48,709 bases of DNA, taken from assembly GCA_025350365.1 (NCBI GenBank), contig JANXXY010000188.1, positions 1-48,709 of the forward strand, given 5' to 3'. The position numbers were made by a program, and so were the translations under genes. Positions 7,386 through 47,882 of the stretch are shown piece after piece (the stretch's first letter is position 1; every line of letters starts with the position of its first letter). Source of the stretch: Bacteroidales bacterium. GTDB taxonomy: Bacteria; Bacteroidota; Bacteroidia; Bacteroidales; JAAUTT01. The notes beneath the pieces were generated by a model. The model made no database searches and was not told the origin of the DNA. It saw only the letters and a program-made list of their open reading frames with translations.

Positions 7386-10169
7386 TTATAAATAAAATTT
7401 GCCTTTTTCGCGAAGCTTTTGAATCTGTTCCTGAGCAGAAACTTCGCGTAATAGTTTTGCCGTATTGGTATAAAAAACATATTGCTCCAAAAATTTTTGT
7501 TGCTGGTTAAACCACTCTTCTTCCGATATATTTGGCGTTCTTTCTTTTACTTCTTTAAAACGGTTCTTGATGTTTATAAAGTAATCAACTCTGCCTAAAT
7601 AATTCAAACTTGCATCGAGTAATATTTTTTCAAGCTTATTTGATAAATTTTGTACACGTTGGGTACCATGAATCAAATCTGTTACTACTTTAATTTGTTC
7701 GTCGGAATACTTGAATTTGGGTAAAATTTCACGGGCAAATTTTTTGCTTGCATGAATATAATCTGAATAGTTTGTAATGAAACCTATATTTAAGAATAAT
7801 GCCGCTGTTCGAAGCAACAACAATTCTTCAGGTGAAGTACCTTCTGCCCTTCCAATTAATTCTACCTGAGTGTATGTATCTTTCGTGTATTTAGCATTGT
7901 GGAAGTATAAATTTTTTGGCAATTCGTTGTTTAGCTTTTCAATAACATATTCTTCCAGATCGTGTAATCTAAGTGCTTGGAGTTGCAAAAAAAACTTTTT
8001 GTTAGGAACGATCTTTAAATCCACTGATAATTCAGGTCTTATGCCCTTTACAAAATACATATCGATGTCTCCTTTGTATTTAACAGGCATTTTACCTCTG
8101 TTTTCACAGATGAAAAAATCTTTTACCAAATCAAATGTGTGACCCGAGATATTTACTTTACCGGCTTCACCTGACGATTCCATGCGGCTGGCCGTGTTTA
8201 CCGTGTCTCCCCAGATATCGTAGGAATAGCGTTTATGTCCCACTACACCGGCAATAACAGCACCCGTATGAATACCAATCCGTAAGTCCCAGATATTATT
8301 GTTTTTAAGTCGCAGGTGTTTCATATATTCTTGCATTTCGAGGGCTGCAAGAACAACTTCTACAGGATTGGTGCGGTTTTTATAGGGTATACCGCCTGCA
8401 CACATATAAGCATCTCCAATGGTTTTAATTTTTTCGATGTTATATTTATCTGCCACTGAATCAAAATGAAAAAAGAAACTATCCAGTTCGTCAATCAGAT
8501 TCTCGGGATTCATTTGCTCAACTATTTTCGAAAAGCCCTGAATGTCTGAGAAAAGAACCGTAACCATATTGAATTTTTGAGAAGTGGCCTTCCCTGTTTT
8601 TTTTAGTTCGTCGGCGGTATCTTTGGGTAGAAGGTTTGCCAATAATTCATCCGTTTTGGACTTTTCTCTTCTCAATTCGGCAGTACGTTGATTGATAATG
8701 TTTTCCAATTTCGTCTTTTCCATGTGGAAATCAAGCCTGCGTTTTCGAAAATACAATATAATAATGGTTAGCGCAACCGAAATGTAAAACAACCAGGCCC
8801 ACCACCTGATGTATAAGGGAGCTTTGATACTAAAAGAAAAGATTGCTTCGGGAGAAATTTTTCCCTGACTGTTTTTGCCTTTTACCCTGAAAGTATAATT
8901 TCCCTGTGGTAAATTATTATATACGATACTTTTATTTAAACGCCATTCGGACCATTTAGAGTCAAATCCGTCAAGAATAGACGAGAAAACAATGTTACTC
9001 CCACTCCTGTAATCTGTTACAGTATATTCGAATGAAAGGTGGCGAGTTGCAGGATTTAACTGTATGGAAGGCTTATTATGTTTTGCCTGCGGTTCGTAAT
9101 GGTATAAAATAGAATCTCCTTCAATAAAAACTTTTGTTAATACTACTGCAAAGTTTTTATTGGATAAGGGTAAATTCTTTTCGTTAAAAAAATCAATCCG
9201 AATAAGACTATGGTTATAAAGAAGCCACAAACTTTCGTTTTTATCATAAAGCAAATCTTTTAAATCATTATTGTTAGATGGCTTGCAGTTTAATGGCAGT
9301 ATCGTATTGTTCTTTTCATCTAGCAGATACGATTGTGAATTTTGCATTAAAATTAACAGTTTGCCTGGAAATATTTCAATCGATTTTGTGAAATTATTCC
9401 AATCAATGGATTTATTTGTGAAGGTTGTAACAGGAACCAAGGTGGATTTATTAAGTGCAATAAGCCCCTTAAAAGCGTGTGGTTTTATCCAAATAAATTC
9501 AGATCCTTCTTCCAGATCAATAATCCCATTATTTACTGATAAAAATTTTTGTTTTGAGAACACCTCACTCCTTTTTCCCGAAATCCTTTTAATTTCGTGC
9601 TCTTTACTTTTTACAAGATAAATGCATTCGTTCCCTTTAAAAATTTTCAATCCGGTGGCCGAGGAGTCCGCTTCATTTAAAGAATTGTTACTAAATAGCC
9701 AAAGTTTATTTTTAGAACTGATATATAGGTTATTATCAACATAGAAAGCTTCTTCCGGTTGTTTCCAATTCTGTAAAACTGCAGGAATAATGATTGTATC
9801 AATAAATTGTTTATCAGCGGAATAATTGATTCTTCCTAAAAAAGATGAATTTACAACAACCATATTGTTGTGAATATCCTCTTCCATAAGCTGTTTCCCT
9901 TTGCATGGAATGAGAATCCAATTGCTACCGTCATATTGAAGTATACCCGTATCAGTAGATATAAACAGGATATTTTGTTGATTGCAAATAATGCGATAAG
10001 ACGTTTTTTGCCCAAAATTAAAATTAAATGTAGTAATGGCAGTATTTATCTCGTATGTGGTAACGTTTTGACCCAATCCCACGTATAGAAAAATAAACAA
10101 TGATAATATAAAAAGAATTTTTTTCTTATCATTTTGATTAGAATTCTTATATTTATTGGGTTTAATCAT
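7386..10169 (-). CDS. membrane-anchored class III adenylate cyclase with periplasmic propeller/Y_Y_Y sensor region and degenerate HD-like C-terminal module
   Basis: 927 aa. There is an N-terminal hydrophobic anchor, then a long repeat region ending in a Y_Y_Y-type module (NYTFRVKGKNSQGKISPEA) followed by a TM (WWAWLFYISVALTIIILYF). A coiled coil precedes the cyclase core: LFSDIQGFS, KIKTIGDAYMCAGG, RIGIHTGAVIAGVVG, YDIWGDTVNTASRMES. Confidence 0.85.
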   Translation of the reverse strand: MIKPNKYKNSNQNDKKKILFILSLFIFLYVGLGQNVTTYEINTAITTFNFNFGQKTSYRIICNQQNILFISTDTGILQYDGSNWILIPCKGKQLMEEDIHNNMVVVNSSFLGRINYSADKQFIDTIIIPAVLQNWKQPEEAFYVDNNLYISSKNKLWLFSNNSLNEADSSATGLKIFKGNECIYLVKSKEHEIKRISGKRSEVFSKQKFLSVNNGIIDLEEGSEFIWIKPHAFKGLIALNKSTLVPVTTFTNKSIDWNNFTKSIEIFPGKLLILMQNSQSYLLDEKNNTILPLNCKPSNNNDLKDLLYDKNESLWLLYNHSLIRIDFFNEKNLPLSNKNFAVVLTKVFIEGDSILYHYEPQAKHNKPSIQLNPATRHLSFEYTVTDYRSGSNIVFSSILDGFDSKWSEWRLNKSIVYNNLPQGNYTFRVKGKNSQGKISPEAIFSFSIKAPLYIRWWAWLFYISVALTIIILYFRKRRLDFHMEKTKLENIINQRTAELRREKSKTDELLANLLPKDTADELKKTGKATSQKFNMVTVLFSDIQGFSKIVEQMNPENLIDELDSFFFHFDSVADKYNIEKIKTIGDAYMCAGGIPYKNRTNPVEVVLAALEMQEYMKHLRLKNNNIWDLRIGIHTGAVIAGVVGHKRYSYDIWGDTVNTASRMESSGEAGKVNISGHTFDLVKDFFICENRGKMPVKYKGDIDMYFVKGIRPELSVDLKIVPNKKFFLQLQALRLHDLEEYVIEKLNNELPKNLYFHNAKYTKDTYTQVELIGRAEGTSPEELLLLRTAALFLNIGFITNYSDYIHASKKFAREILPKFKYSDEQIKVVTDLIHGTQRVQNLSNKLEKILLDASLNYLGRVDYFINIKNRFKEVKERTPNISEEEWFNQQQKFLEQYVFYTNTAKLLREVSAQEQIQKLREKGKFYL

Positions 10170-12244: not shown

Positions 12245-14545
12245 ATGAATAAAGTTGTAAGTACCCTATTGCTTTCTCTAATTCTTGGGACACTATTTGC
12301 TCAGATACCTGTTGGCTCTTGGCGCGACCATTTGCCTTATTCGCGTTGCATAAAAGTGGTTAAAATTGATAATAAAATAGTTGTAGCCACTGAAAATAAT
12401 CTTTTCACTTACAATACTTCCGATAATAGCTTCGAAAAGCTTTCGAAAATTAGTGGTCTTTCCGATATGGGAATTAGTACCATGGAGTATAATCCTGAAA
12501 AAAAAATACTCCTTGTAGCATACGCAAATGGTAATATTGATATTATAAAAGGAAATGTCATCAGCAATATTGCTGATGTTAAAAAGAAAGTGATGACCGG
12601 TTCAAAGAAAGCGAATCACATCTTTTTCCTCGGTAATTTCGCATACATGTCCTTTTCATTTGGGATTGTAGTTTTGGATTTGGAACGTTTAGAAATAAAA
12701 GACACCTATATGGTTGGCGAAGCAGGTGCAGTTTACGAAGTATTTTCGACAGTTGCGGATAATACCTCCCTTTATGCCGCCACTTCCAAAGGGATTTTTA
12801 AAGCGGATATCAACGACCCATTTCTGGTTGATTACAACCGATGGCATCGTATCCTTGATATCCCCAATAACATAGGTAAATTTGATAAGCTGGCAATTTT
12901 TCAAGGTAAAATAATTGCTAACTATTTTGGAGAGGCAGATAATACTGATGTGCTTTATTATTTTGAAAATAATATATGGAAATCGTTTCTACCAAATGCT
13001 AAAACACATAAAAATGAACTTCGGGTATCGGGTAATTGGTTGATGATGTCAGGTCTGAATCAGGGCTACACTATTAACCAAAACTTTGACATCACTGATA
13101 CCTATGATTCTTATGGGTTTGATTCTTCGCGACCTCGAAGTTCGATGGTGGATGAAGGAGGAAATTTATGGATTGCCGATGAACTCTATGGCCTGGTTAG
13201 CAGACCAGCAAATGTAAACCAATTTGCAAGTTTTTATCCAAAAGGACCTGCAACAAATAATGTAAGAGAAATGCTTTGGTCCAATGGAACGCTCTATGTT
13301 ACCGGCGGAGGCACAGATGTCTCGTGGAATAACCTTTTTAATCGTGGAGAATTGTTTCGTTTTTCGAACGAAACGTGGAATAATATCAGAAATGAAAACG
13401 TGTTTGACTTTACATGCATTGCTCCTGATCCTGCCGATCCTGCAAAAGTATATATTGGATCGTGGGGAAAAGGGGTATTTTCGTATGCGGGAAACGAATT
13501 GGCCGTAAATTATACCTATTCCAACAGCAATTTGCAAACCATTATTCCCGGAGATAATTATGTAAGAATTGGCGGAATGGTTTCTGATGAAGCCAAAAAC
13601 CTTTGGATAACAAACAGCGGAGTGAACTCTCCTCTGGTAGTGAGAAAAGCTGATAATCAATGGAAATCTTTTCAACTGGGTTCTTATCTTAATGTTCCAA
13701 CCGTGGGAACTATCCATCGCGACCATGCAGGAAAATTCTGGGTTGTTCTGCCTCGTGGTTATGGGATATTTGTTTTCGATGCCAATGGAACCATTGATAA
13801 TGAATCGGATGACCGTTTTGTGAAATTTAAACCCATAAGCGCCAATGGAGATATAATCAATTACATTTATTTCATTACAAGTGATAATGATGGAACTGTT
13901 TGGGTAGGAACAGATCATGGTGTGGTAGTGTATTCCAACCCCGAAAATGTGTTCAAAGGTGAAACGGCTGGCGTGCAACCTGCAATTCGCAGAAATGATG
14001 GCACAGATATTATTGATCCTTTACTTGGATCGGAAACCGTAAATTGCATAGCGGTTGATGGCGCAAATCGTAAATGGTTTGGAACGGAAAAGGGCGGGAC
14101 TTATTTGTTCTCCCCGGATGGAACCAAACAAATCACTCATTTTAACACCGATAACAGCCCATTGTTTTCCAACAGCGTCAAAAGTATTGCGATTGACGGA
14201 AAAAGTGGAGAAGTGTTTTTTGGAACTGATCAGGGAATTATTTCGTATCGTTCCAACTCAACTTTGGCTAATGATGATTTCACCAATGTATATGTTTTTC
14301 CTAATCCGGTACGTGAAGATTATCATGGCGATATTACCGTTACAGGATTAATTGCTGATTGTTCAGTGAAAATAACCGATATTTCGGGAAACCTCGTATA
14401 CGAAACTAAATCGCTCGGTGGGCAGGCTGTCTGGAATGGCAAAACAGGCGGAGGGCAACGCGTTGCTACAGGTGTATACCTAGTTTTCTGTTCCAACGAT
14501 GATGGATCTAAAACATTTGTTACCAAGATGCTTGTGATTCATTGA
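12245..14545 (+). CDS. porZ: PorZ-like type IX secretion component (double beta-propeller plus T9SS C-terminal sorting domain)
   Basis: 766 aa with a signal peptide (LLLSLILGTLFAQ) and propeller-type repeats throughout (WIGT/WVGTDHGV-like). The C-terminal CTD reads VFPNPVREDYHGDITVTGL...ITDISGNLVYE...WNGKT..GQRVATGVYLV. Size and layout match PorZ, but I cannot exclude another propeller-CTD cargo protein. Confidence 0.6.
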   Translation: MNKVVSTLLLSLILGTLFAQIPVGSWRDHLPYSRCIKVVKIDNKIVVATENNLFTYNTSDNSFEKLSKISGLSDMGISTMEYNPEKKILLVAYANGNIDIIKGNVISNIADVKKKVMTGSKKANHIFFLGNFAYMSFSFGIVVLDLERLEIKDTYMVGEAGAVYEVFSTVADNTSLYAATSKGIFKADINDPFLVDYNRWHRILDIPNNIGKFDKLAIFQGKIIANYFGEADNTDVLYYFENNIWKSFLPNAKTHKNELRVSGNWLMMSGLNQGYTINQNFDITDTYDSYGFDSSRPRSSMVDEGGNLWIADELYGLVSRPANVNQFASFYPKGPATNNVREMLWSNGTLYVTGGGTDVSWNNLFNRGELFRFSNETWNNIRNENVFDFTCIAPDPADPAKVYIGSWGKGVFSYAGNELAVNYTYSNSNLQTIIPGDNYVRIGGMVSDEAKNLWITNSGVNSPLVVRKADNQWKSFQLGSYLNVPTVGTIHRDHAGKFWVVLPRGYGIFVFDANGTIDNESDDRFVKFKPISANGDIINYIYFITSDNDGTVWVGTDHGVVVYSNPENVFKGETAGVQPAIRRNDGTDIIDPLLGSETVNCIAVDGANRKWFGTEKGGTYLFSPDGTKQITHFNTDNSPLFSNSVKSIAIDGKSGEVFFGTDQGIISYRSNSTLANDDFTNVYVFPNPVREDYHGDITVTGLIADCSVKITDISGNLVYETKSLGGQAVWNGKTGGGQRVATGVYLVFCSNDDGSKTFVTKMLVIH

Positions 14546-38737: not shown

Positions 38738-39715
38738 ATGGCAAAAATTAAGAACCTGGGTGTATTAACTTCCGGCGGCGATGCTCCGGGAATGAACGCT
38801 GCAATTCGAGCCGTAACCCGTGCTGCAATTTTCAATAATATTGAGGTATTTGGTATCCGCAGGGGATATGAAGGAATGATTGATGGAGATATAGAAAAAC
38901 TTGAATCGAAGGATGTGAGCGGAATCATCCAAAAAGGCGGAACAATGCTTAAAACGGCACGTTCTGCTCGTTTCCGCACTCCTGAAGGTAGAAAGCAAGC
39001 ATATGAAAACCTTGAAAAATTTGGCATTGACGCACTTGTGGTAATTGGCGGTGACGGATCGTTTACAGGAGCCAGTATTCTCTCACAGGAATATAATATT
39101 CCGATAATCGGCATTCCGGGAACTATCGATAACGACTTGTATGGAACGGATTATACCATAGGTTACGACACCTGTTTAAATACAGTAATTGAAGCTGTTG
39201 ATAAAATTCGGGATACTGCCAGCTCCCATAATCGTATCTTTTTTATTGAGGTAATGGGTCGCGATGCAGGGTTTGTGGCTCTCGAAAGCGGCATTGCCAC
39301 TGGTGCAGAGGTTATTATGATTCCTGAAGTGAAAAATCAGATGGTCGAATTACGCGAATTTCTTTCGCAACGTGCAAAATCCAACAAATCAAGCATTATC
39401 ATATGCGCTGAAGGCGACGATGAAGGTAATGCATACGAAATTGCAAAAAAAGTAGAATCCGAATTTCCTCAATTCGACATACGAGTAACCATTTTGGGAC
39501 ACATTCAGCGCGGTGGTTCGCCATCAAGCTACGACCGGGTTTCTGCAAGCCGCATGGGCGTGGCAGCAGTGGAAGCATTGCTCGACGACCAAAAAAGCAT
39601 TATGGTAGGTTTAAGTAATGGCCAGATTGTGCATGTACCACTAAACAAAACAGTTAAAATGCACAAAGGAGTTCCTAAGAGCTTACTGGATGTAGCACAT
39701 ATTCTGGCAATATAG
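38738..39715 (+). CDS. pfkA: ATP-dependent 6-phosphofructokinase
   Basis: 325 aa. It shows LTSGGDAPGMNAAIRAV, IGGDGSF, PGTIDNDL, VMGRDAG and LGHIQRGG. Confidence 0.95.
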   Translation: MAKIKNLGVLTSGGDAPGMNAAIRAVTRAAIFNNIEVFGIRRGYEGMIDGDIEKLESKDVSGIIQKGGTMLKTARSARFRTPEGRKQAYENLEKFGIDALVVIGGDGSFTGASILSQEYNIPIIGIPGTIDNDLYGTDYTIGYDTCLNTVIEAVDKIRDTASSHNRIFFIEVMGRDAGFVALESGIATGAEVIMIPEVKNQMVELREFLSQRAKSNKSSIIICAEGDDEGNAYEIAKKVESEFPQFDIRVTILGHIQRGGSPSSYDRVSASRMGVAAVEALLDDQKSIMVGLSNGQIVHVPLNKTVKMHKGVPKSLLDVAHILAI

Positions 39716-39732
39716 AATTAGTTATAATAGAC

Positions 39733-39876
39733 ATGTTTGCATATTCGATCGTCAGAAAAATTAGTTTTCGTAAATATCGAGAAGTAAATTTACATAGATT
39801 AATAATGTGTTTAGTAATTTTTACGATCGTATTGTTAGACGGAATGTGGGCTGTCTTTAAAGAAAATAATCTGTGA
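39733..39876 (+). CDS. possible 47-aa small membrane protein (below the ORF-track length cut-off)
   Basis: Hand translation from ATG 39733 gives MFAYSIVRKISFRKYREVNLHRLIMCLVIFTIVLLDGMWAVFKENNL, ending at TGA (39874-39876). It has a basic N-terminus followed by one TM helix. There is no other support. Confidence 0.2.
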   Translation: MFAYSIVRKISFRKYREVNLHRLIMCLVIFTIVLLDGMWAVFKENNL

Positions 39877-40160
39877 CAATAATTGATTACTTTTTTTTGA
39901 AAAATGTTTAATTCTTCTTTGACAGTTTAAATATATGAATGATTTTTCAGCTTTTCCCCAATCCATGAAGGGAGAAAGCTGAGAAATCAACTTATTTCAT
40001 GCAGGAATTTAGTAAAACCAGATGATTTTTCTAAAGTGTGAAAGAAGAAATAATGTAACAATTCAAACGAAAGCTAAAGAAGATTTCGCACCAATGTTTA
40101 GCAAACAGCGGCACATATAGAATAAGGAAAATAAAAAAATAAAAATATTTTTTTATTTTG

Positions 40161-40168
40161 TATTTTTG
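40161..40168 (+). promoter_or_regulatory. candidate -7 box (TAnnTTTG) for the ImmA-DUF4411 pair
   Basis: tatttttg is an exact TAnnTTTG ending 7 nt before the ATG at 40176. That implies a leaderless or near-leaderless mRNA if it is used. Confidence 0.3.
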
Positions 40169-40175
40169 AAATTAA

Positions 40176-41354
40176 ATGGCAAACAAAGCATATATAACCC
40201 CAAATGTTCTTAAATGGGCACGAGAATCTTCAAGGATGTCCGAAGAAACTGCAGCTGCCAAAGTATTTGTTACTGAGGATAAACTTAAAGAGTGGGAATT
40301 AGGATCAAGCCAACCGACAATTAAACAGGCACAGACCTTGGCCAAGTCTTATAAACGACCATTTGCATTATTTTTTCTTCCTGAAGTTCCAAGGGACTTT
40401 CAACCTTTACAAGATTATAGAAAAAAGGGAGCAAAAGCACTTACTACTTCTTCTATTTTCATAATTAGGGAAATACAACAAAAACAGAATTGGATAAGTG
40501 ACGTTTTTGTCGAAAATAAAGAAAATAAATTGCCTTATGTAGGTAGGTTTTCGTTCAAGGACAATCCTGTTACAGTTGCAAATGACATTTTGAAAACATT
40601 AGGCATAAACCCCTTACGTTATAATACAGACAATCCCATAAGAGAATGGATATATGCAGCTGAATCAAAAGGAATATTCATTTCTCGTTCAAGTTTTATT
40701 CATTCGAGACTCAAATTAGATTCAGAAGAATTGCAAGGTTTTGCCATTTCAGACGCCTATGCACCGTTTGTTTTTGTTAATTCAGAAGATTGGAATGCTC
40801 CCCAGTTATTTACGCTTGTTCACGAACTTGCTCATGTTTGGATTGCTGAAACTGGAATTTCAAATGATGTAGAACCTGAGATAAAAAATAAAGATAAATT
40901 TCATCCTGTAGAGCTTTTCTGCAATCAAGTTGCTGCAAATGCTTTAATTCCTCATGAATTGATCTCTAATCTGGACAGCAATATTTACCAAAATGCGAGA
41001 GAAGTTTTTAAAGTTGCAAAGACCATTGGCGTGAGCTCATTTGCATTTCTGGTGAGGGCATTTAACATGAATATAATTTCAGATACAACTTATCAAAAAT
41101 TAAAACGCGAAGCTGAAATAGATTTCTCTGCTTTTCTTAAAAGAGAGTCAGAAAAAAAAGCAAAACAAAAAGATAAAATTAAGTCTGGCGAACCCAATTA
41201 TTATCTTTTACAATTGAATAGAAATAGCAGACTATTTACCCAAACTATATTGGATGCATTTCATGGTGGATTTATTGAGCCAACAGTAGCTAGTAATCTT
41301 CTTAATGTTCAGGTAAATAAATTTCGAAAATTAGAAGCACAATTATTTAAATGA
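40176..41354 (+). CDS. XRE-type HTH fused to ImmA/IrrE-family (COG2856/DUF955) zinc metallopeptidase
   Basis: 392 aa. The N-terminal HTH-like region (ITPNVLKWARESSRMSEETAA...SQPTIKQAQTLAKSYKRPFALFF) precedes an intact HExxH (LVHELAHVWI, residues 216-220, nt 40821-40835). Confidence 0.85.
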   Translation: MANKAYITPNVLKWARESSRMSEETAAAKVFVTEDKLKEWELGSSQPTIKQAQTLAKSYKRPFALFFLPEVPRDFQPLQDYRKKGAKALTTSSIFIIREIQQKQNWISDVFVENKENKLPYVGRFSFKDNPVTVANDILKTLGINPLRYNTDNPIREWIYAAESKGIFISRSSFIHSRLKLDSEELQGFAISDAYAPFVFVNSEDWNAPQLFTLVHELAHVWIAETGISNDVEPEIKNKDKFHPVELFCNQVAANALIPHELISNLDSNIYQNAREVFKVAKTIGVSSFAFLVRAFNMNIISDTTYQKLKREAEIDFSAFLKRESEKKAKQKDKIKSGEPNYYLLQLNRNSRLFTQTILDAFHGGFIEPTVASNLLNVQVNKFRKLEAQLFK

Positions 41355-41857
41355 GTACAAGAGCACTAATTTATTGTTTGGATGCCAATGTACTTATTCA
41401 GGCTTGGCAAAAATATTATTCTCCAAAATTTTGTCCTGACTATTGGGATATTCTTATTGAATTGGGTAAGAATGAAATCATTTTTATTCCTGAATTAGTT
41501 CGCGAAGAAATTATTCGAACTGAAGACAATCTTTCTAAGTGGTTAAAAAACAGCAAAATTCCTATTCGGAAAATTGTTGAAAAAGTTACAAAGTGCTTAC
41601 AAAACATCTATGCAAAAAATCAAGTTCATAAAAATTTGGTTGACAATACAAAAGCAAGATCAATAGCAGACCCATGGATAATTGCACATGCCATAAATGA
41701 AGGAGCAACTGTTGTTACAAAGGAAGAAAAAGTTACCGCATTAAATTCAAATAAGATCAAAATTCCCAACGTTTGTGATAATATGGGAGTTAGATGGATT
41801 AATGACTTTGAGTTTATTGATGAGATTGATATTAAATTTACATGCAAATTTAAATAA
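41351..41857 (+). CDS. DUF4411 family protein (PIN-like predicted nuclease)
   Basis: 168 aa. It shows IYCLDANVLIQAW, IPELVREEI, IADPWIIAHA, VVTKEEK and IPNVC...GV, the acidic-residue pattern and block order I associate with DUF4411. It overlaps the upstream gene by ATGA. Confidence 0.8.
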   Translation: MSTRALIYCLDANVLIQAWQKYYSPKFCPDYWDILIELGKNEIIFIPELVREEIIRTEDNLSKWLKNSKIPIRKIVEKVTKCLQNIYAKNQVHKNLVDNTKARSIADPWIIAHAINEGATVVTKEEKVTALNSNKIKIPNVCDNMGVRWINDFEFIDEIDIKFTCKFK

Positions 41858-41927
41858 GAAAAACACAAACAACTGCAAACACGTCCTATAAGCTATGGCG
41901 GGTTGACATCTACATCATGCATTTTTT

Positions 41928-44411
41928 ATGAACGAAAGTCCCAATCATCTTGTATTTGCCAATGTAATTCTTCCGGTTCCAATTCCAAGGCTTTTTACCT
42001 ACCTGGTTCCTGAAGAGTTGCGATCAGAAATTGCTCCTGGCAAACGAGTAATCGTTCAGTTTGGGGCAAAAAGGTTCTATTCGGCCATTGTACACCATAT
42101 TCATTTTACTCAACCGGAAGGTTATACGGTAAAAGAAATCATTTCACTGCTCGACGATAAACCAGCGGTAAATGCCATTCAACTAAAATTTTGGGATTGG
42201 ATTGCCTCCTATTATATGTGCACATTGGGAGATGTGATGAAAGCAGCTTTGCCATCGGGCTTAAAACTGGAAAGTGAAACGAAAGTCTATATTAATACAG
42301 AATTTGAAGCTCAACAACAAATTTCGGAATCGGAGGAACTAATCCTGAATTTACTTTCGCAGCGTAATATTCTGTCGGTGGAAGAAATTGCCAAATCATA
42401 TAAGAAGAAGGACTTACTAAAAGTGATAAAAAAGCTGGTTGATGATGGCGCATTAATATTGGAAGAATCGCTAAAGGACCGGTTTAAAATTAAAACAGAG
42501 ACCTTTGTAGAATTAATGCCTCATTTATACGACGAGGCTGAGCTTAAACAAGTGTTCGATATTCTTGGTAAAGCTCATAAACAGCTTCAGATTTTAATGA
42601 AGTTCATTCAACTTTCAGAAATTTACACCCCTAAACCCAAAGAAGTATCCAAAAAATCACTCCTTTCCGATTTTCCATCCGGTAATGAACTATTGAAAAG
42701 CCTGATAAAAAAAGGTGTGTTTCAAACGTATGAGAAAAAAGAACACGACGACCTTACACAACCAGGGAATGATCACAAACTAAAGCCTCTTTCGCAAGGC
42801 CAGAAGGAAGCGTTGAATAGTGTGAGAATTTCGTTCGAAAAACACCAGGTAGTTTTATTGCACGGATATACTGCCAGCGGAAAAACAGAACTCTATATCG
42901 AATTAATTAACGAGCAATTAATTGCAGGAAAGCAGGTACTTTATTTATTACCCGAAATAGCTTTAACGGCGCAAATCATAAACCGTCTGAAAGGTGCATT
43001 TGGTGAAAAAGTGGGCATCTATCATTCAAAATTCTCTGACAGTGACAGGGTTAAGGTTTGGAACGCCCTAATCGACCCGAATAAGATGAGTCAGTACCAG
43101 GTGATACTGGGTGTTAGATCATCTATTTTCCTGCCATTCACTAATCTCGGGTTAATAATAGCAGACGAGGAACACGAAAATAGCTATAAACAATTCGATC
43201 CGGCTCCGCGGTATCATGCCCGGGATGCGGCAATTGTGCTGGCACAACTTCATGGAGCTAAAACACTGCTTGGCACGGCAACACCATCTATCGAATCGTA
43301 TTACAATGCCGAAAATGGCAAATATGGAATAGTTCAACTGTTTCAGCGGTTTGCAAATGTTGAATTACCCGAAATAATGGTTGTCAATATTGAAGAAGCC
43401 CGGCAGCGAAAACAGATGAAATCTCATTTCCATCCGGTATTAATCGAAAAGATGCAAGAAGTGCTTGATCTGGGAGAACAAATCATTCTGTTTCAGAACC
43501 GCAGGGGATATTCACCTTATTTTCAATGCTCCGTTTGTAATACCATACCTAAATGTAAACATTGCGACGTTAGTCTTACATACCATAAAAATCTTGGTAT
43601 GTTAGTTTGTCATTATTGTGGTTACAGCACCTCTAAAATAATTATTTGTGAAGCGTGTGGTTCCTCGTCGCTTGTTATGCATGGCTTTGGAACTGAAAAG
43701 ATTGAAGACGAGCTTGCTCTGTTCTTTCCGGGAAAGCGAATAGCGAGAATGGATTTGGACTCCACGCGGTCGCGAAAAGCATACGAAGAAATGATTAGCG
43801 ATTTCGAAAACAGAGAACTGGATATATTAGTTGGCACACAAATGATTTCAAAAGGACTGGACTTTGACAATGTGAATTTGGTGGGTGTACTTGATGCCGA
43901 TCACCTGCTAAATTTCCCGGATTTCAGGGCTTTTGAGCGAAGTTTTCAGTTGATGTCGCAGGTTAGTGGACGTGCAGGACGAAAACACAAACAAGGGAAA
44001 GTGATCATTCAAACAACCGATCCCAAAAACTACATTATTAACGATGTAATCAATAACGACTTCCTGCACATGTACAAAATCCAATTGGCTGAGCGAAGCA
44101 CTTTTGGCTATCCGCCCTTCACGCGACTTATTCAACTTACGCTAAAACATAAAAATCAATCCATGTTGGATGAAGCTTCCTCTTATTTGGCCGATAGTTT
44201 GAGGATATCATTTGCAAACCGGGTGTTTGGTCCCGAATATCCTTTAATAAGCAGAATTAGTAACTGGTATCATAAGAATATCCTGCTAAAGATTGAACGA
44301 CAGGCGTCGTTTGCGAAAGCGAAGGAAATTGTAAGCACAAGTATTAATCAGCTCTCAGCGCATGAAACATATTATCCGGTAATAGTTCAGACGGATGTCG
44401 ACCCAATGTAG
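41928..44411 (+). CDS. priA: primosomal protein N' (replication restart helicase)
   Basis: 827 aa. It has Walker A GYTASGKTE, the DEEH box IIADEEHENSYK and Cys-rich zinc fingers (CSVCNTIPKCKHCDVSLTYH...CHYCG...CEACGS). Confidence 0.95.
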   Translation: MNESPNHLVFANVILPVPIPRLFTYLVPEELRSEIAPGKRVIVQFGAKRFYSAIVHHIHFTQPEGYTVKEIISLLDDKPAVNAIQLKFWDWIASYYMCTLGDVMKAALPSGLKLESETKVYINTEFEAQQQISESEELILNLLSQRNILSVEEIAKSYKKKDLLKVIKKLVDDGALILEESLKDRFKIKTETFVELMPHLYDEAELKQVFDILGKAHKQLQILMKFIQLSEIYTPKPKEVSKKSLLSDFPSGNELLKSLIKKGVFQTYEKKEHDDLTQPGNDHKLKPLSQGQKEALNSVRISFEKHQVVLLHGYTASGKTELYIELINEQLIAGKQVLYLLPEIALTAQIINRLKGAFGEKVGIYHSKFSDSDRVKVWNALIDPNKMSQYQVILGVRSSIFLPFTNLGLIIADEEHENSYKQFDPAPRYHARDAAIVLAQLHGAKTLLGTATPSIESYYNAENGKYGIVQLFQRFANVELPEIMVVNIEEARQRKQMKSHFHPVLIEKMQEVLDLGEQIILFQNRRGYSPYFQCSVCNTIPKCKHCDVSLTYHKNLGMLVCHYCGYSTSKIIICEACGSSSLVMHGFGTEKIEDELALFFPGKRIARMDLDSTRSRKAYEEMISDFENRELDILVGTQMISKGLDFDNVNLVGVLDADHLLNFPDFRAFERSFQLMSQVSGRAGRKHKQGKVIIQTTDPKNYIINDVINNDFLHMYKIQLAERSTFGYPPFTRLIQLTLKHKNQSMLDEASSYLADSLRISFANRVFGPEYPLISRISNWYHKNILLKIERQASFAKAKEIVSTSINQLSAHETYYPVIVQTDVDPM

Positions 44412-46099: not shown

Positions 46100-46172
46100 C
46101 GGGGTATGGCGCAGTTGGTAGCGCGCGTCGTTCGGGACGACGAGGCCGTGGGTTCGAGTCCCGCTACCCCGA
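46100..46172 (+). tRNA. tRNA-Pro (anticodon CGG)
   Basis: The hand-folded cloverleaf has acceptor CGGGGTA/TACCCCG and D arm GCGC-AGTTGGTA-GCGC. The anticodon arm is CGTCG-TTCGGGA-CGACG (U33, CGG, G37). The variable loop is AGGCC, the T arm is GTGGG-TTCGAGT-CCCGC, and the discriminator is A. No CCA is encoded. Confidence 0.9.
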
Positions 46173-46173
46173 C
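46158..46173 (+). repeat. direct repeat copy 1 (tRNA-Pro 3' end, putative attL core)
   Basis: gtcccgctaccccgac is identical to 48035-48050. Confidence 0.7.
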
Positions 46174-46279
46174 TTATAAATAAATAAAATACAGTTAATT
46201 AAAGTTGGTTGTTTTTAATTATTTTTTATGTTTTATATTATGAACAAAAAGCGTATATTTGTCTGTAATATCAATCATT

Positions 46280-46609
46280 ATGAAAACTAAAAAAACTGTT
46301 TTACTCCCTTCATTACAAAAAGTACTAAATGTATTTGGAGAAAATATAAAATTGGCTCGTTTACGCAGAAAACTAAGCACAGAACAGCTTTCTGAACGAG
46401 CAAATATTAGCCGCTCAACCCTTTGGTTAATTGAAAAGGGTACTGCGGGAGTTGCAATGGGAACATACCTTCAGGTACTCTTTGTATTAGGTCTGGAAAA
46501 GGATTTTCTTCAGGTTGCAAGCGATGACACTTTAGGAAGGAAACTTCAGGATTCTGAACTCCTTGTTAAGGAAAGAGCACCCAAAAGAACTAGTATTAAA
46601 CCAGAATAA
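46280..46609 (+). CDS. hipB: XRE-family HTH antitoxin (HipB-like)
   Basis: I take the start at ATG 46280 (MKTKKTVLLPSLQKVL...). The HTH reads LARLRRKLSTEQLSERANISRSTLWLIEKG. The stop lies 1 nt before the hipA ATG. Confidence 0.8.
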   Translation: MKTKKTVLLPSLQKVLNVFGENIKLARLRRKLSTEQLSERANISRSTLWLIEKGTAGVAMGTYLQVLFVLGLEKDFLQVASDDTLGRKLQDSELLVKERAPKRTSIKPE

Positions 46610-46610
46610 T

Positions 46611-47882
46611 ATGCAAATAAGAAATCAACAAAGAGAAATACTGGTTTACGCTAACTGGAAAGGATTACAAGATCCTTTGCTTATGGGAACTCTTACAGCC
46701 ACCCAATTGCGCGGAAAGGATGTATTCTCGTTTGAATATAGGAAAGAATGGATAAATTCAGGGAACGCCCAACATATTGACCCCGATTTGCAACTTTATT
46801 CAGGACCTCAATACCTGAATGAAGGGAAAACGAATTTTGGTATATTTCTTGATTCTGCACCAGATCGATGGGGTAGAGTATTAATGCAACGCCGTGAAGC
46901 AATACTTGCACGATCCGAAAATCGTAAAGCAAATACACTTTTCGAAATAGATTATCTTCTCGGTGTTTATGATGAACAACGGATAGGAGGGATCCGTTTC
47001 AAAGAGAACGAAAACGGACCATTTCTTAACGATAATAAAGATCTTTCGGCTCCACCCTGGACATCACTTAGAGAGCTTGAATATGCAAGCTTACAAATTG
47101 AAAAGGATAATAGCATAGATAATCCCGAATATGTTAAATGGATTAACATGCTTATGGCTCCTGGTTCTTCATTAGGTGGTGCAAGACCAAAAGCAGGAGT
47201 CTTGGATACAGAGAAAAACCTTTGGATTGCAAAATTTCCAAGTGCAAACGATAACAAGGATATTGGGGCATGGGAAATGGTGGTGAACGATTTAGCTAAA
47301 ATTGCCGGGTTGCAAATGGCTGAGGGAATGGTTCGCAAATTCTCAACGAATTATCATACGTATTTAACAAAGCGATTTGACCGGACACCAAAAGGAGAAC
47401 GGATTCATTTTGCATCGGCTATGACATTGCTGGGCTACACCGATGGAGTTAGCTCTCATGATGGTGTCAGCTACCTGGAAATTGTCGAATTTATTATGAG
47501 GCACGGGGCTAAGGTCGATCATGATCTTGAAGAGCTATGGAGAAGAATTGTATTTAGCATTTGTGTCTCAAATACCGACGACCATCTTCGAAATCATGGA
47601 TTTCTGTTAACCGAAACCGGATGGATTCTTTCGCCTGCGTACGATGTGAATCCTGTTGAAACAGGAACAGGATTAAAACTTAACATTTCTGAACATGATA
47701 ATTCCTTAAATTTAGATTTAGCCTTGGAGGTCGCCGAATATTTTCGGCTTCAAGATAAACGTGCTGTCGAGATTATTGAATCCGTTAAAAAATCAGTTCT
47801 TACCTGGAGGTCAATTGCTGAAAAGTATAAAATTTCAAAATCCGAACAGGAAAGAATGGCTAAGGCATTTTATTCTGAATGA
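46611..47882 (+). CDS. hipA: HipA-family serine/threonine kinase toxin
   Basis: I take the start at ATG 46611 (MQIRNQQREILVY...). It has the N-terminal HipA coupling region, SLGGARPKA (nucleotide-binding loop) and the catalytic loop SNTDDHLRNHGFLL. Confidence 0.9.
   Translation: MQIRNQQREILVYANWKGLQDPLLMGTLTATQLRGKDVFSFEYRKEWINSGNAQHIDPDLQLYSGPQYLNEGKTNFGIFLDSAPDRWGRVLMQRREAILARSENRKANTLFEIDYLLGVYDEQRIGGIRFKENENGPFLNDNKDLSAPPWTSLRELEYASLQIEKDNSIDNPEYVKWINMLMAPGSSLGGARPKAGVLDTEKNLWIAKFPSANDNKDIGAWEMVVNDLAKIAGLQMAEGMVRKFSTNYHTYLTKRFDRTPKGERIHFASAMTLLGYTDGVSSHDGVSYLEIVEFIMRHGAKVDHDLEELWRRIVFSICVSNTDDHLRNHGFLLTETGWILSPAYDVNPVETGTGLKLNISEHDNSLNLDLALEVAEYFRLQDKRAVEIIESVKKSVLTWRSIAEKYKISKSEQERMAKAFYSE

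What the first reader, a model, noticed from the sequence alone, without database searches (positions are those of the whole stretch)
40176..41857. HTH-ImmA/IrrE metallopeptidase + DUF4411 (PIN-like) two-gene cassette inserted between pfkA and priA: candidate protease-gated toxin/defence module
Two genes overlap by ATGA (41351-41354), which suggests translational coupling. Gene 1 fuses an XRE-type HTH to an ImmA/IrrE-type peptidase with an intact HELAH. Gene 2 is a 168-aa DUF4411 protein whose conserved acidic positions (D11 in YCLDANV, E52/E53 in REEI, D107 in ADPWI) fit a PIN-like nuclease active site. The pair is flanked by core genes (pfkA, priA). It follows a 460-bp gene-poor AT-rich spacer. 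Hand counts of two 60-nt lines inside gene 2 gave about 30-32 % GC, against about 43 % for one line in pfkA; this is a rough sample only. Characterised ImmA/IrrE proteases (ImmA-ImmR of ICEBs1, IrrE-DdrO of Deinococcus) cleave a repressor on a stress signal. Here the HTH and the protease are one polypeptide sitting next to a predicted nuclease. That suggests signal-triggered self-inactivation that frees or induces a toxin. I am not aware of any experimental characterisation of this pairing.
Basis: partly seen in the sequence, partly recalled or inferred. Interest (0 to 1): 0.72.

Follow-up and report, generated by a model that had tools for sequence, protein, structure and literature searches.

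The report
VapBC52-type toxin–antitoxin gene pair
This is a real two-gene toxin–antitoxin module (a DNA-binding zinc-protease antitoxin followed by a PIN-type RNase toxin) inserted between two housekeeping genes of a Bacteroidota genome, but it belongs to a family predicted since 2009 whose M. tuberculosis member, VapBC52, was solved and characterised in 2026, so it is a new member of a known kind.

Summary
Gene 1 (40176-41354, 392 aa: HTH, M78 peptidase with HELAH, C-terminal domain) and gene 2 (41351-41857, 168 aa: DUF4411/PIN) overlap by ATGA. They lie between pfkA and priA and are AT-richer than their flanks. Three related metagenome contigs keep cmk-ispH-pfkA-priA-rfaE with no cassette, so it is an insertion.

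The claim that the pairing is uncharacterised no longer holds. Both proteins match, over their full lengths, the two chains of PDB 9VZY, M. tuberculosis VapB52/VapC52 (E 2e-29 and 6.6e-14; family profiles 1.9e-35 and 2.3e-38). In that system the antitoxin clamps a VapC dimer, ssDNA triggers its self-cleavage at an FR motif, and the freed toxin cuts tRNAs. The association was predicted in 2009 and 2017, and toxicity with rescue was shown in 2019.

In 78 of 78 assessable species genomes the two genes are adjacent, and 70 keep the 4-nt overlap. They co-evolve (r = 0.86) and sit in unrelated contexts.

Differences from VapBC52:
- VapB52's "cysteine switch" Cys229 is Ser here and in all 72 relatives examined.
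- F81 is Y.
- The module is not in a defence island.
- Anti-phage activity is unproven, even for intact VapBC52.

Verdict: new member of a known kind, low-to-moderate interest.

The parts
39716..40175 (.). 460-bp AT-rich spacer between pfkA and gene 1 (26.3% GC). Its left 130 nt is highly variable against the nearest relative (8.5% divergence). Its right ~150 nt is almost invariant.
39841..40022 (.). 182-nt segment present in the window but absent from the near-identical relatives L006 and L007. It contains a strong hairpin (arms 39940-39959 and 39970-39989; -27 kcal/mol, z = -5).
40128..40159 (.). Perfect 14-nt A/T palindrome (AAAATAAAAAAATA/TATTTTTTTATTTT) just upstream of the promoter box. 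It is not conserved in other insertions of the cassette, so it is probably not the operator.
40161..40168 (+). TATTTTTG, a match to the Bacteroidota -7 promoter consensus TAnnTTTG (consensus from my own knowledge), ending 8 nt before the ATG. This predicts a nearly leaderless mRNA. A TAnnTTTG box 12-18 nt from the ATG travels with the cassette in 48 of 78 loci. That it functions as a promoter is inferred.
40176..41354 (+). Gene 1: 392-aa antitoxin homolog of VapB52 (XRE-type HTH N-terminal domain, M78/ImmA-IrrE zinc peptidase, C-terminal helical domain).
   Evidence: Pfam PF06114 1.1e-10; PADLOC RmrA models up to 2.1e-19; PHROG 2439 9e-57; PDB 9VZY_A E 2e-29 over aa 9-387, family profile 1.9e-35
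40416..40421 (+). Codons Y81-R82. They are the aligned counterpart of the VapB52 'FR motif' (F75-R76), the proposed autocleavage site at the N-terminal-domain/peptidase linker. R82 is invariant. Position 81 is F in 70 of 72 relatives and Y here.
40821..40835 (+). HELAH zinc-binding motif (H216, E217, H220). H216 and E217 are invariant in 72 of 72 genome homologs, and H220 in 71 of 72.
40860..40862 (+). Codon S229. It aligns with VapB52 C229 (the 'cysteine switch'). It is Ser in 72 of 72 genome homologs examined (almost all Bacteroidota/Ignavibacteriota) and in the Leptospira and Enterobacter plasmid homologs.
40911..40913 (+). Codon E246, the third zinc ligand (VapB52 E245), within the invariant E-x-x-C-N motif.
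41178..41351 (+). C-terminal domain (about aa 335-392). It aligns with the VapB52 C-terminal domain, which occludes the toxin active site.
41351..41354 (+). ATGA start/stop overlap of the two genes. A 4-nt overlap is kept in 70 of 78 assessable loci.
41351..41857 (+). Gene 2: 168-aa DUF4411 PIN-domain toxin homolog of VapC52. Acidic tetrad: D11 (41381-41383), E53 (41507-41509), D107 (41669-41671), E125 (41723-41725).
   Evidence: Pfam DUF4411 7.5e-42 and PIN 2.3e-5; PDB 9VZY_D 6.6e-14, family profile 2.3e-38; AF2 model pLDDT 94.9; Foldseek top hits are VapC toxins, probability 1.0; conservation
41858..41927 (+). 70-nt gap to priA. No terminator-like site and no TAnnTTTG box, whereas two of the three empty-site relatives carry such a box ~45-55 nt upstream of priA. 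Read-through from the cassette into priA is possible (inference only).

Best explanation
The cassette is a horizontally acquired type II toxin-antitoxin module of the VapBC52 type, which falls within the wider 'Rosmer-like' class of HTH plus ImmA/IrrE-peptidase antitoxins.

Shown here:
- Gene 2 encodes a VapC-like PIN nuclease with an intact acidic tetrad.
- Gene 1 encodes a three-part protein that is homologous over its whole length to the antitoxin VapB52.
- The two genes are always adjacent, usually overlap by 4 nt, and co-evolve.
- The pair sits in unrelated genomic contexts and is absent from the same site in relatives.

Inferred by homology to VapBC52:
- One antitoxin molecule clamps a toxin dimer. 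Its N-terminal HTH domain binds the outer face of the dimer and its C-terminal domain plugs the active site.
- A stress signal, most likely single-stranded DNA from DNA damage or phage replication, stimulates the zinc peptidase to cut its own linker at or near Y81-R82.
- Loss of the N-terminal domain releases the toxin, which cleaves tRNAs in the anticodon or variable loop. Translation stops, giving growth arrest or abortive infection.
- The HTH domain probably also autoregulates the minimal promoter that travels with the cassette.

Because Cys229 is replaced by Ser, gating of the peptidase is probably IrrE-like: stimulated by ssDNA but not locked off by a cysteine.
For: Domains.

Full-length homology of both proteins to the two chains of a single solved complex, 9VZY: E 2e-29 and 6.6e-14; profiles 2.3e-38 and 1.9e-35. 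One search confirms that 9VZY/9VZZ are VapBC52.

Mechanism of VapBC52 (1:2 complex, N-terminal domain essential for binding, C-terminal domain occluding the active site, ssDNA-induced self-cleavage abolished in the H216A/H220A mutant, tRNA cleavage). Toxicity of Rv2514c and rescue by Rv2515c.

PIN fold: model pLDDT 94.9; top structural matches are VapC toxins.

Catalytic and zinc residues conserved.

Co-occurrence in 78 of 78 assessable loci, 70 with the 4-nt overlap. The same pairing occurs on Leptospira and Enterobacter plasmids. Mirror-tree r = 0.86.

Decay pattern typical of TA modules: toxin stops in 6 of 80 loci, against broken antitoxin with intact toxin in 2 of 80.

Insertion: empty sites in L009, L011 and L014. 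Low GC and GC3. Cassette proteins 74-76% identical where neighbouring ispH and cmk are only 48-52% identical.

Prior predictions of the same architecture.
Against: Nothing was tested experimentally for this locus.

Identity to VapB52 is only about 26%, and roughly 30% for the toxin, so substrate and trigger could differ.

The Cys that VapB52 and CapP use to lock the zinc site is Ser here and in all 72 genome homologs examined. The window has Y rather than F at the proposed cleavage motif.

Three loci (L001, L064, L109) carry a broken gene 1 beside an intact gene 2. That is unexpected if the toxin is lethal when unopposed, unless fragments of the antitoxin still neutralise it or these are assembly errors.

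Gene 2 hits no PADLOC defence model. Neighbours are mostly housekeeping genes. The intact VapBC52 pair did not protect against phage.

My model of gene 1 was too poor to check the domain arrangement.
Confidence: 0.75

Rival explanations
1. It is a plain addiction or stabilisation module. The pair is a toxin-antitoxin system, but the peptidase domain plays no signalling role in this clade. Neutralisation and release follow the classical route (antitoxin turnover by host proteases, loss of the locus), and the module persists as a selfish element with no stress or defence function.
For: The cysteine-switch residue is absent. The module is free-standing with no conserved third gene and mostly housekeeping neighbours. 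Homologs occur on 45 plasmids, 24 of them conjugative, and inside a relaxase/primase element in Chitinophaga. The intact VapBC52 pair gave no phage protection. The related pneumococcal RipAB antitoxin depends on ClpX.
Against: H216, E217 and E246 are invariant, and H220 is kept in 71 of 72 homologs at 58-78% identity. R82 of the proposed cleavage motif is also invariant. That is hard to explain if the peptidase were idle. The VapB52 HExxH mutant still binds the toxin, so the motif is not conserved for binding.
Confidence: 0.15
2. It is a fused ImmR/ImmA-type or IrrE-type regulatory switch. Gene 1 would mainly be a DNA-damage-responsive repressor controlling downstream genes (gene 2 and perhaps priA), and gene 2 would be a non-toxic RNA- or DNA-processing nuclease.
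For: The M78 domain is shared with ImmA, IrrE and CapP. No terminator or promoter box lies between gene 2 and priA. priA's function is relevant to DNA damage (established knowledge).
Against: Gene 1 aligns end to end with an antitoxin that binds its toxin directly, including the toxin-occluding C-terminal domain, and not with the GAF-containing IrrE/CapP architecture. The homologous Rv2514c is toxic and is rescued by Rv2515c. The pair recurs in 78 loci with unrelated downstream genes, none of them priA.
Confidence: 0.05
3. It is an inactive relic: a decaying insertion that no longer functions.
For: 6 of 80 relatives have a toxin with an internal stop, and a few have a broken antitoxin. pN/pS for gene 1 against L006 is 0.53, although this rests on only 9 differences.
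Against: Both ORFs are full-length with every catalytic and zinc residue intact. Near-identical intact copies sit at the same site in three other assemblies. The promoter box is conserved.
Confidence: 0.04

Closest known systems
VapBC52 (Rv2515c/Rv2514c) of Mycobacterium tuberculosis, PDB 9VZY/9VZZ (Singh et al., NAR 2026, PMC13273310)
   Same: The gene order is the same (antitoxin first). The antitoxin has the same three-part layout of about 390-415 aa (HTH N-terminal domain, HExxH peptidase with a downstream Glu, C-terminal domain). The toxin is a DUF4411 PIN protein of 150-170 aa. Both window proteins align over their full lengths to the two chains. The Arg of the FR motif, HExxH, the third zinc ligand Glu and the toxin's Asp (D6 in VapC52, D11 here) are conserved.
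   Different: Identity is only about 26% for the antitoxin and about 30% for the toxin. Cys229 of the 'cysteine switch loop' is Ser, and F75 is Y. The window protein starts at the conserved N-terminal domain, whereas VapB52 has about 23 extra residues that the authors predicted to be disordered and removed. The host is Bacteroidota, not Actinomycetota. Nothing is known here about substrate, trigger or phenotype.
RosmerTA (RmrT/RmrA) anti-phage toxin-antitoxin systems (Millman et al. 2022; Ernits et al. 2023), including pneumococcal RipAB (spr1630/spr1629)
   Same: The antitoxin has an XRE HTH plus an ImmA-like zinc peptidase. Gene 1 matches 14 PADLOC RmrA models, up to 2.1e-19 and nearly full-length, and weakly matches NCBIfam 'spr1629 family repressor/antitoxin'. 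Ernits et al. note that the ImmA/Rosmer antitoxin node also pairs with PIN-like toxins.
   Different: Gene 2 matches no RmrT model. Characterised Rosmer toxins act differently: membrane depolarisation for Kita RmrT and DnaN targeting for RipA. Gene order in Rosmer is variable, with the toxin first in 58%, but it is fixed antitoxin-first here.
CapP/CapH, IrrE/DdrO and ImmA/ImmR protease-repressor pairs
   Same: They share the M78 zinc-peptidase fold (PADLOC capP 1.7e-10; IrrE 3DTE 4.9e-5). ssDNA or DNA damage is the activating signal in CapP, IrrE and VapB52. Like IrrE, the window protein lacks the cysteine switch.
   Different: In those systems the protease cuts a separate HTH repressor to switch on transcription, and they carry a GAF domain. 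Here the HTH is on the same chain, there is a toxin-binding C-terminal domain instead of GAF, no separate repressor gene is adjacent, and the output is release of a bound toxin.
Canonical VapBC (PIN toxin with a small RHH/AbrB/Phd antitoxin)
   Same: The toxin has a VapC-like PIN fold with an acidic tetrad. The top Foldseek hits are VapC from Rickettsia, Shigella and Mtb, and FitB. It is a bicistronic antitoxin-then-toxin operon.
   Different: The antitoxin is about four times larger and carries an enzyme domain. In VapBC52 the stoichiometry is 1:2 rather than 2:2 or 4:4. The toxin belongs to the separate DUF4411 sequence family.

Membership tests
VapBC52-type TA (HTH-M78-CTD antitoxin + DUF4411 toxin) | The toxin is a DUF4411-family PIN domain with conserved acidic catalytic residues. 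| tested here: met
   PF14367 7.5e-42 over the full length, and PF01850 above its cut-off. D11 and D107 invariant, E53 and E125 at least 90% conserved in 90 diverse members. 9VZY_D E 6.6e-14, profile 2.3e-38. VapC fold, pLDDT 94.9.
VapBC52-type TA (HTH-M78-CTD antitoxin + DUF4411 toxin) | The antitoxin is homologous over its whole length: N-terminal HTH domain, HExxH peptidase with downstream Glu ligand, and C-terminal toxin-occluding domain. | tested here: met
   9VZY_A aligned aa 9-387 to chain residues 4-384, E 2e-29; profile 1.9e-35. H216, E217, H220 and E246 are present. This is tested by sequence only; my 3D model was unusable.
VapBC52-type TA (HTH-M78-CTD antitoxin + DUF4411 toxin) | Bicistronic, antitoxin upstream of toxin, with the two genes co-inherited. 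| tested here: met
   ATGA overlap. 78 of 78 assessable loci are adjacent, 70 with a 4-nt overlap. Distance-matrix correlation r = 0.86.
VapBC52-type TA (HTH-M78-CTD antitoxin + DUF4411 toxin) | 'FR motif' at the N-terminal-domain/peptidase linker (the proposed autocleavage site). | tested here: inconclusive
   The window has Y81-R82. R is invariant, and F occurs in 70 of 72 relatives. F to Y is conservative, but its effect on cleavage is unknown.
VapBC52-type TA (HTH-M78-CTD antitoxin + DUF4411 toxin) | 'Cysteine switch' residue (C229) coordinating zinc in the inactive state. | tested here: not met
   Ser229 in the window, in 72 of 72 genome homologs and in two plasmid homologs. The feature is not universal in the wider peptidase family: IrrE and some CapP homologs lack it. 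I therefore treat it as a clade-specific refinement and not a family-defining feature.
VapBC52-type TA (HTH-M78-CTD antitoxin + DUF4411 toxin) | Toxicity with neutralisation, ssDNA-induced self-cleavage, and tRNA cleavage. | not testable with these tools
   These need expression and biochemical assays. They were shown only for the Mtb pair.
RosmerTA (as defined in PADLOC) | RmrA antitoxin (HTH + zinc peptidase). | tested here: met
   14 RmrA HMMs hit, the best at 2.1e-19 over aa 4-312.
RosmerTA (as defined in PADLOC) | An adjacent RmrT toxin. | tested here: not met
   Gene 2 has no RmrT hit. Its only PADLOC hit is PDC-S70 at E 0.01. It therefore works like a Rosmer system but would not be called one by the current models.
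ImmA/ImmR, IrrE/DdrO and CapP/CapH protease-repressor switches | A separate HTH repressor substrate encoded next to the protease. | tested here: not met
   Upstream is pfkA and downstream is the PIN gene. No stand-alone HTH gene is present.
ImmA/ImmR, IrrE/DdrO and CapP/CapH protease-repressor switches | Association with the regulated unit (ICE or prophage, DNA-repair regulon, or CBASS/immune operon). | tested here: not met
   No integrase, CBASS or other defence operon lies around the cassette. The window is made of housekeeping genes.

The most novel reading that the evidence does not exclude
The Bacteroidota/Ignavibacteriota clade of this family has an invariant Ser in place of the zinc-capping Cys. 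It may therefore be gated by a different signal or mechanism from the ssDNA-plus-cysteine-switch model proposed for VapB52 and CapP. In this particular genome, the cassette lies directly upstream of priA with no terminator or promoter box in between. It may have become the transcriptional driver of priA, coupling expression of the replication-restart helicase to a DNA-damage-sensing antitoxin.
Probability: 0.1. Interest if true: 0.5.

Novelty: new member of a known kind. Interest (0 to 1): 0.22.

Why it matters
The value is mostly confirmatory. The finding shows that the VapBC52 architecture, so far studied only in M. tuberculosis, has a very large and tightly conserved branch that moves horizontally through Bacteroidota and Ignavibacteriota. 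Relatives were found in 345 species genomes, at 66-81% identity among the best 80, where neighbouring core genes are about 50% identical.

Two points could interest specialists. First, the 'cysteine switch' invoked for activation of VapB52 is absent from every member of this branch and from the proteobacterial and spirochaete plasmid homologs examined. Either the gating model is specific to the mycobacterial lineage, or most of the family is regulated in the IrrE manner. Second, a few natural alleles have a truncated antitoxin next to an intact toxin, which offers a test of which antitoxin domains are sufficient for neutralisation.

Neither point changes how the module should be classified.

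Tried and rejected
1. Structure prediction of gene 1 from the 39 close homologs I was allowed to use gave pLDDT 51 and pTM 0.32. Only the N-terminal helices (aa 11-59) were confident, so I did not fold-search the model and I rely on sequence homology to 9VZY_A.

2. Mapping the insertion junctions: local alignments of the window's left and right flanks against the three empty sites scored no better than shuffled sequence. No target-site duplication, flanking inverted repeats or integrase was found. The boundaries and the insertion mechanism therefore remain unknown.

3. Operator search: the perfect AT palindrome at 40128-40159 is not conserved in other copies of the cassette. Only the TAnnTTTG box and, in many copies, a block of about 45 nt are conserved.

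4. Rfam (gathering thresholds) and tRNA scans found nothing in or beside the cassette. The terminator scan found none in 39600-42050.

5. Defence-island hypothesis: the immediate neighbours of 80 loci showed no family in more than 5 of 139 flanking proteins, with a minority of R-M methyltransferases. The window itself is housekeeping. Rejected as a general property.

6. Phage carriage: despite strong PHROG hits, the deposited phage collection holds only two weak matches at about 30% identity.

7. The first genome scan, using the 90-sequence alignment, failed because the alignment was too diverse. It was repeated with a narrower alignment, so the census covers only the branch carrying the DPW[VI]IAHA motif.

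8. Recent-transfer test: synonymous divergence from L006 is six-fold lower in the cassette than in the flanks (Fisher p = 8e-9). However, background divergence is patchy (0-8.5% per 200 nt) with no sharp tract edge, so I treat this as a hint only.

9. The Foldseek PDB library stops at April 2026. 9VZY did not appear among the 50 hits shown and may postdate the library. The link to VapC52 therefore rests on HMMER searches of the later sequence copy.
Full report
**1. What is in the sequence**

Two same-strand ORFs occupy 40176-41354 (392 aa) and 41351-41857 (168 aa) and share the tetranucleotide ATGA. Upstream is pfkA (38738-39715; PF00365, 7e-115). Downstream, after a 70-nt gap, is priA (41928-44411; PriA 3'BD, DEAD, Zn-ribbon and C-terminal domains).

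Gene 1 matches Peptidase_M78 (PF06114, 1.1e-10) and carries HELAH at residues 216-220. Its N-terminal HTH_3 match is below Pfam's threshold in this protein (19.2 bits against 23), but most close homologs pass it.

Gene 2 matches DUF4411 end to end (7.5e-42) and also passes the PIN threshold.

The 460-bp spacer is 26.3% GC. Gene 1 is 33.8% GC and gene 2 is 30.0%, against 36.3% for the window and 43.4% and 39.9% for pfkA and priA. Gene 2 is lower than all 34 other long ORFs, and GC3 is 22.5% in both genes against 36-39% in the flanks. One refinement: the conserved Glu is E53, and a fourth acidic residue, E125, completes the PIN tetrad.

**2. It is an insertion, and the unit is just two genes plus a minimal promoter**

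A scan of metagenome contigs with PriA returned three relatives: L009, L011 and L014 (PfkA 87-88% and PriA 65-75% identical). They keep cmk-ispH-pfkA-priA-rfaE with only about 120-160 nt between pfkA and priA and no cassette.

Three assemblies of a near-identical organism (L006-L008; gene 1 98% and gene 2 99% identical) have the cassette at the same site.

Across independent insertions, DNA similarity stops right after the stop codon of gene 2. Among the four contexts aligned it stops about 25 nt upstream of the gene 1 ATG, although many of the 78 loci share a block of about 45 nt. What is conserved upstream is a TAnnTTTG box. This is the Bacteroidota -7 consensus (my own knowledge). It lies 12-18 nt from the ATG in 48 of 78 loci and is TATTTTTG at 40161-40168 here, which predicts a nearly leaderless transcript.

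I could not map the junctions at nucleotide level, because the alignments scored no better than shuffles. I found no target duplication, inverted repeats or recombinase.

**3. The two genes are one co-inherited module**

The genome collection (one genome per species) held 345 genomes encoding a relative with the DPW[VI]IAHA motif. The best 80 (66-81% identical) are almost all Bacteroidota or Ignavibacteriota.
- In 78 of 78 loci with enough upstream sequence, a gene 1 homolog lies directly upstream. Seventy keep a 4-nt overlap.
- Pairwise distances of the two proteins correlate at r = 0.86 over 56 pairs.
- None of these loci is next to pfkA or priA. In two loci that happen to carry ispH and cmk, those genes are 48-52% identical to the window's while the cassette proteins are 74-76% identical. 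That is direct evidence of horizontal movement.
- The immediate neighbours are heterogeneous. No Pfam or PADLOC family occurs in more than 5 of 139 flanking proteins. A minority are R-M methyltransferases and most are housekeeping.
- More distant homologs lie on 45 plasmids, 24 of them conjugative. On a Leptospira plasmid and an Enterobacter IncFII plasmid, a 380-396-aa 'XRE family' gene again sits directly upstream. One Chitinophaga copy lies inside a relaxase/primase element.
- The toxin family is large: 2,820 clusters at 50% identity with E at or below 1e-3.
- Decay is asymmetric, as expected for a toxin-antitoxin pair. Six of 80 toxin genes have an internal stop, whereas two of 80 (plus L001) have a broken antitoxin beside an intact toxin.

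**4. What it is homologous to**

Both proteins hit the two chains of one PDB entry, 9VZY:
- Gene 1 against chain A ('HTH cro/C1-type domain-containing protein', 393 aa): E 2e-29, aa 9-387 aligned to residues 4-384.
- Gene 2 against chain D ('DUF4411 family protein'): E 6.6e-14.
- Family profiles raise these to 1.9e-35 and 2.3e-38, and nothing else in the PDB comes close. The next hit for gene 1 is IrrE at about 1e-4.

9VZY and 9VZZ are the M. tuberculosis VapBC52 complex and VapC52 (Rv2515c/Rv2514c). An AlphaFold model of gene 2 (pLDDT 94.9) has VapC toxins as its best structural matches, at probability 1.0.

**5. How it most likely works (by homology)**

For VapBC52, Singh et al. (PMC13273310) report the following:
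- The antitoxin has an N-terminal HTH domain that binds the outer face of a VapC dimer. It also has a middle zinc-peptidase domain and a C-terminal helical domain that occludes the toxin active site, giving a 1:2 complex.
- ssDNA induces HExxH-dependent self-cleavage that removes the N-terminal domain. The proposed site is an FR motif in the linker, and the N-terminal domain is required for toxin binding.
- The toxin cleaves tRNAs in the anticodon or variable loop, including phage D29 tRNAs.
- Toxicity of Rv2514c and its rescue by Rv2515c had been shown in 2019.

In the window protein the aligned residues are Y81-R82 for the FR motif, H216/E217/H220 and E246 for the zinc site, and about aa 335-392 for the C-terminal domain. 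In the toxin, D11 aligns with the catalytic D6. These residues are invariant or nearly so in 72 genome homologs.

I therefore infer the same logic: clamp, signal-stimulated self-cleavage, toxin release, translation arrest. That it is a TA module of this family is well supported. The trigger, the cut site and the substrate are inferred.

**6. Where it differs**

VapB52 Cys229, the 'cysteine switch' that caps the zinc in the inactive state, is Ser in the window, in all 72 genome homologs examined, and in the Leptospira and Enterobacter homologs. According to the CapP work, not all CapP homologs have this cysteine. IrrE also lacks it, is active without ssDNA, and is further stimulated by ssDNA. 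The likely consequence is looser, IrrE-like gating, not loss of the mechanism.

The window also has Y where 70 of 72 relatives have F at the motif.

The 'defence' label is unproven:
- Gene 2 has no PADLOC hit, and gene 1 matches RmrA models only.
- The window is housekeeping.
- In the Mtb study, protection from phage was seen with VapC52 overexpressed alone but not when VapB52 was co-expressed.

**7. Comparison with what is known, and novelty**

The architecture has a long record:
- 2009: predicted as Xre-COG2856 fusions such as Rv2515c in operons with PIN toxins.
- 2017: DUF4411.1 placed downstream of fused HTH-DUF955 genes.
- 2022-2023: placed in the ImmA/Rosmer zone of the TA network, with PIN partners noted.
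- 2026: solved and characterised.

The window's cassette is thus a new member of a known kind. By current PADLOC models it would not be called Rosmer, because it has no RmrT. It is also not an ImmA/ImmR-, IrrE/DdrO- or CapP/CapH-type switch, because there is no separate repressor and the output is a bound toxin.

**8. Residual points of interest**
- The family-wide Cys-to-Ser difference.
- Natural alleles with a truncated antitoxin and an intact toxin (L001, seen on five contigs, plus L064 and L109). These might reveal which domains are enough to neutralise the toxin, or may be assembly errors.
- The cassette occupies the place of the TAnnTTTG box that two of the three empty-site relatives carry upstream of priA. 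No terminator or promoter box lies in the 70-nt gap, so priA may be read through from the cassette.
- Synonymous divergence from the nearest relative is six-fold lower in the cassette than in the flanks (p = 8e-9), but on a patchy background.

None of these changes the classification. Interest is low to moderate.

Noticed in passing
window 46100-47882: A second TA-type module lies right after tRNA-Pro(CGG) (46100-46173). An XRE-like HTH ORF (46259-46609, 116 aa) overlaps the start of a HipA_C kinase ORF (46563-47882, 439 aa; PF07804 3.8e-48). The arrangement looks like HipBA, about 4.7 kb from the cassette. One relative of the cassette (L004) also sits next to a HipBA module.
   Followed up: partly
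window 39841-40022: A 182-nt segment in the pfkA-gene 1 spacer is present in the window but absent from the near-identical relatives L006 and L007. It could be a small insertion, or a deletion in the relatives. The 130 nt just after pfkA is also unusually divergent (8.5%).
   Followed up: partly
L001 4096-5274 (also L002; L064, L109): The gene 1 allele in L001 has a single in-frame stop at codon 102 beside an intact toxin gene, and it was seen on five contigs. It would leave the N-terminal HTH domain (aa 1-101) and an ORF for aa 258-392 (the C-terminal domain), which are the two toxin-contacting parts in VapB52. L064 and L109 have a frameshift or stop in gene 1 with an intact gene 2. I have not checked whether these are real or assembly errors.
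   Followed up: partly
window 40176-41857 vs L006 8001-9682: Synonymous divergence between the window and its nearest relative is 6 of 344 sites in the cassette against 97 of 899 in cmk, pfkA and priA (Fisher p = 8e-9). Divergence along the 13.6-kb shared region is patchy (0-8.5% per 200 nt; priA has blocks of 5.5-7%) and there is no sharp boundary. This hints at recent exchange of the cassette, or at recombination imports in priA.
   Followed up: partly
window 41858-41927 and L009/L011 intergenic: The empty-site relatives L009 and L011 have a TAnnTTTG box (TACTTTTG and TACCTTTG) about 45-55 nt upstream of priA. The window has none in the 70-nt gap and no terminator after gene 2, so priA may depend on transcription coming from the cassette.
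   Followed up: no
window 7386-10169 (-): A 927-aa ORF has a Y_Y_Y domain and a class III nucleotide cyclase domain (PF00211, 2e-55). It also hits the PADLOC Pycsar cyclase model PycC (2.7e-20). It is probably a generic sensor cyclase and not a defence gene. No effector partner was looked for.
   Followed up: no
window 12245-14545 (+): This ORF is a PorZ-like type IX secretion component (PF21544, 9.7e-40). Together with the TAnnTTTG promoter boxes, it supports a Bacteroidota origin for the window. The organism was not otherwise identified.
   Followed up: no
L092 (Blastocatellia MAG), L055 (Leptospira plasmid pLiSL43): A 73%-identical copy of the cassette is in an Acidobacteriota (Blastocatellia) MAG, and a 56%-identical toxin with its partner is on a Leptospira interrogans plasmid next to a DNA methyltransferase. 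These indicate transfer between phyla, or mis-binning in the MAG case.
   Followed up: no
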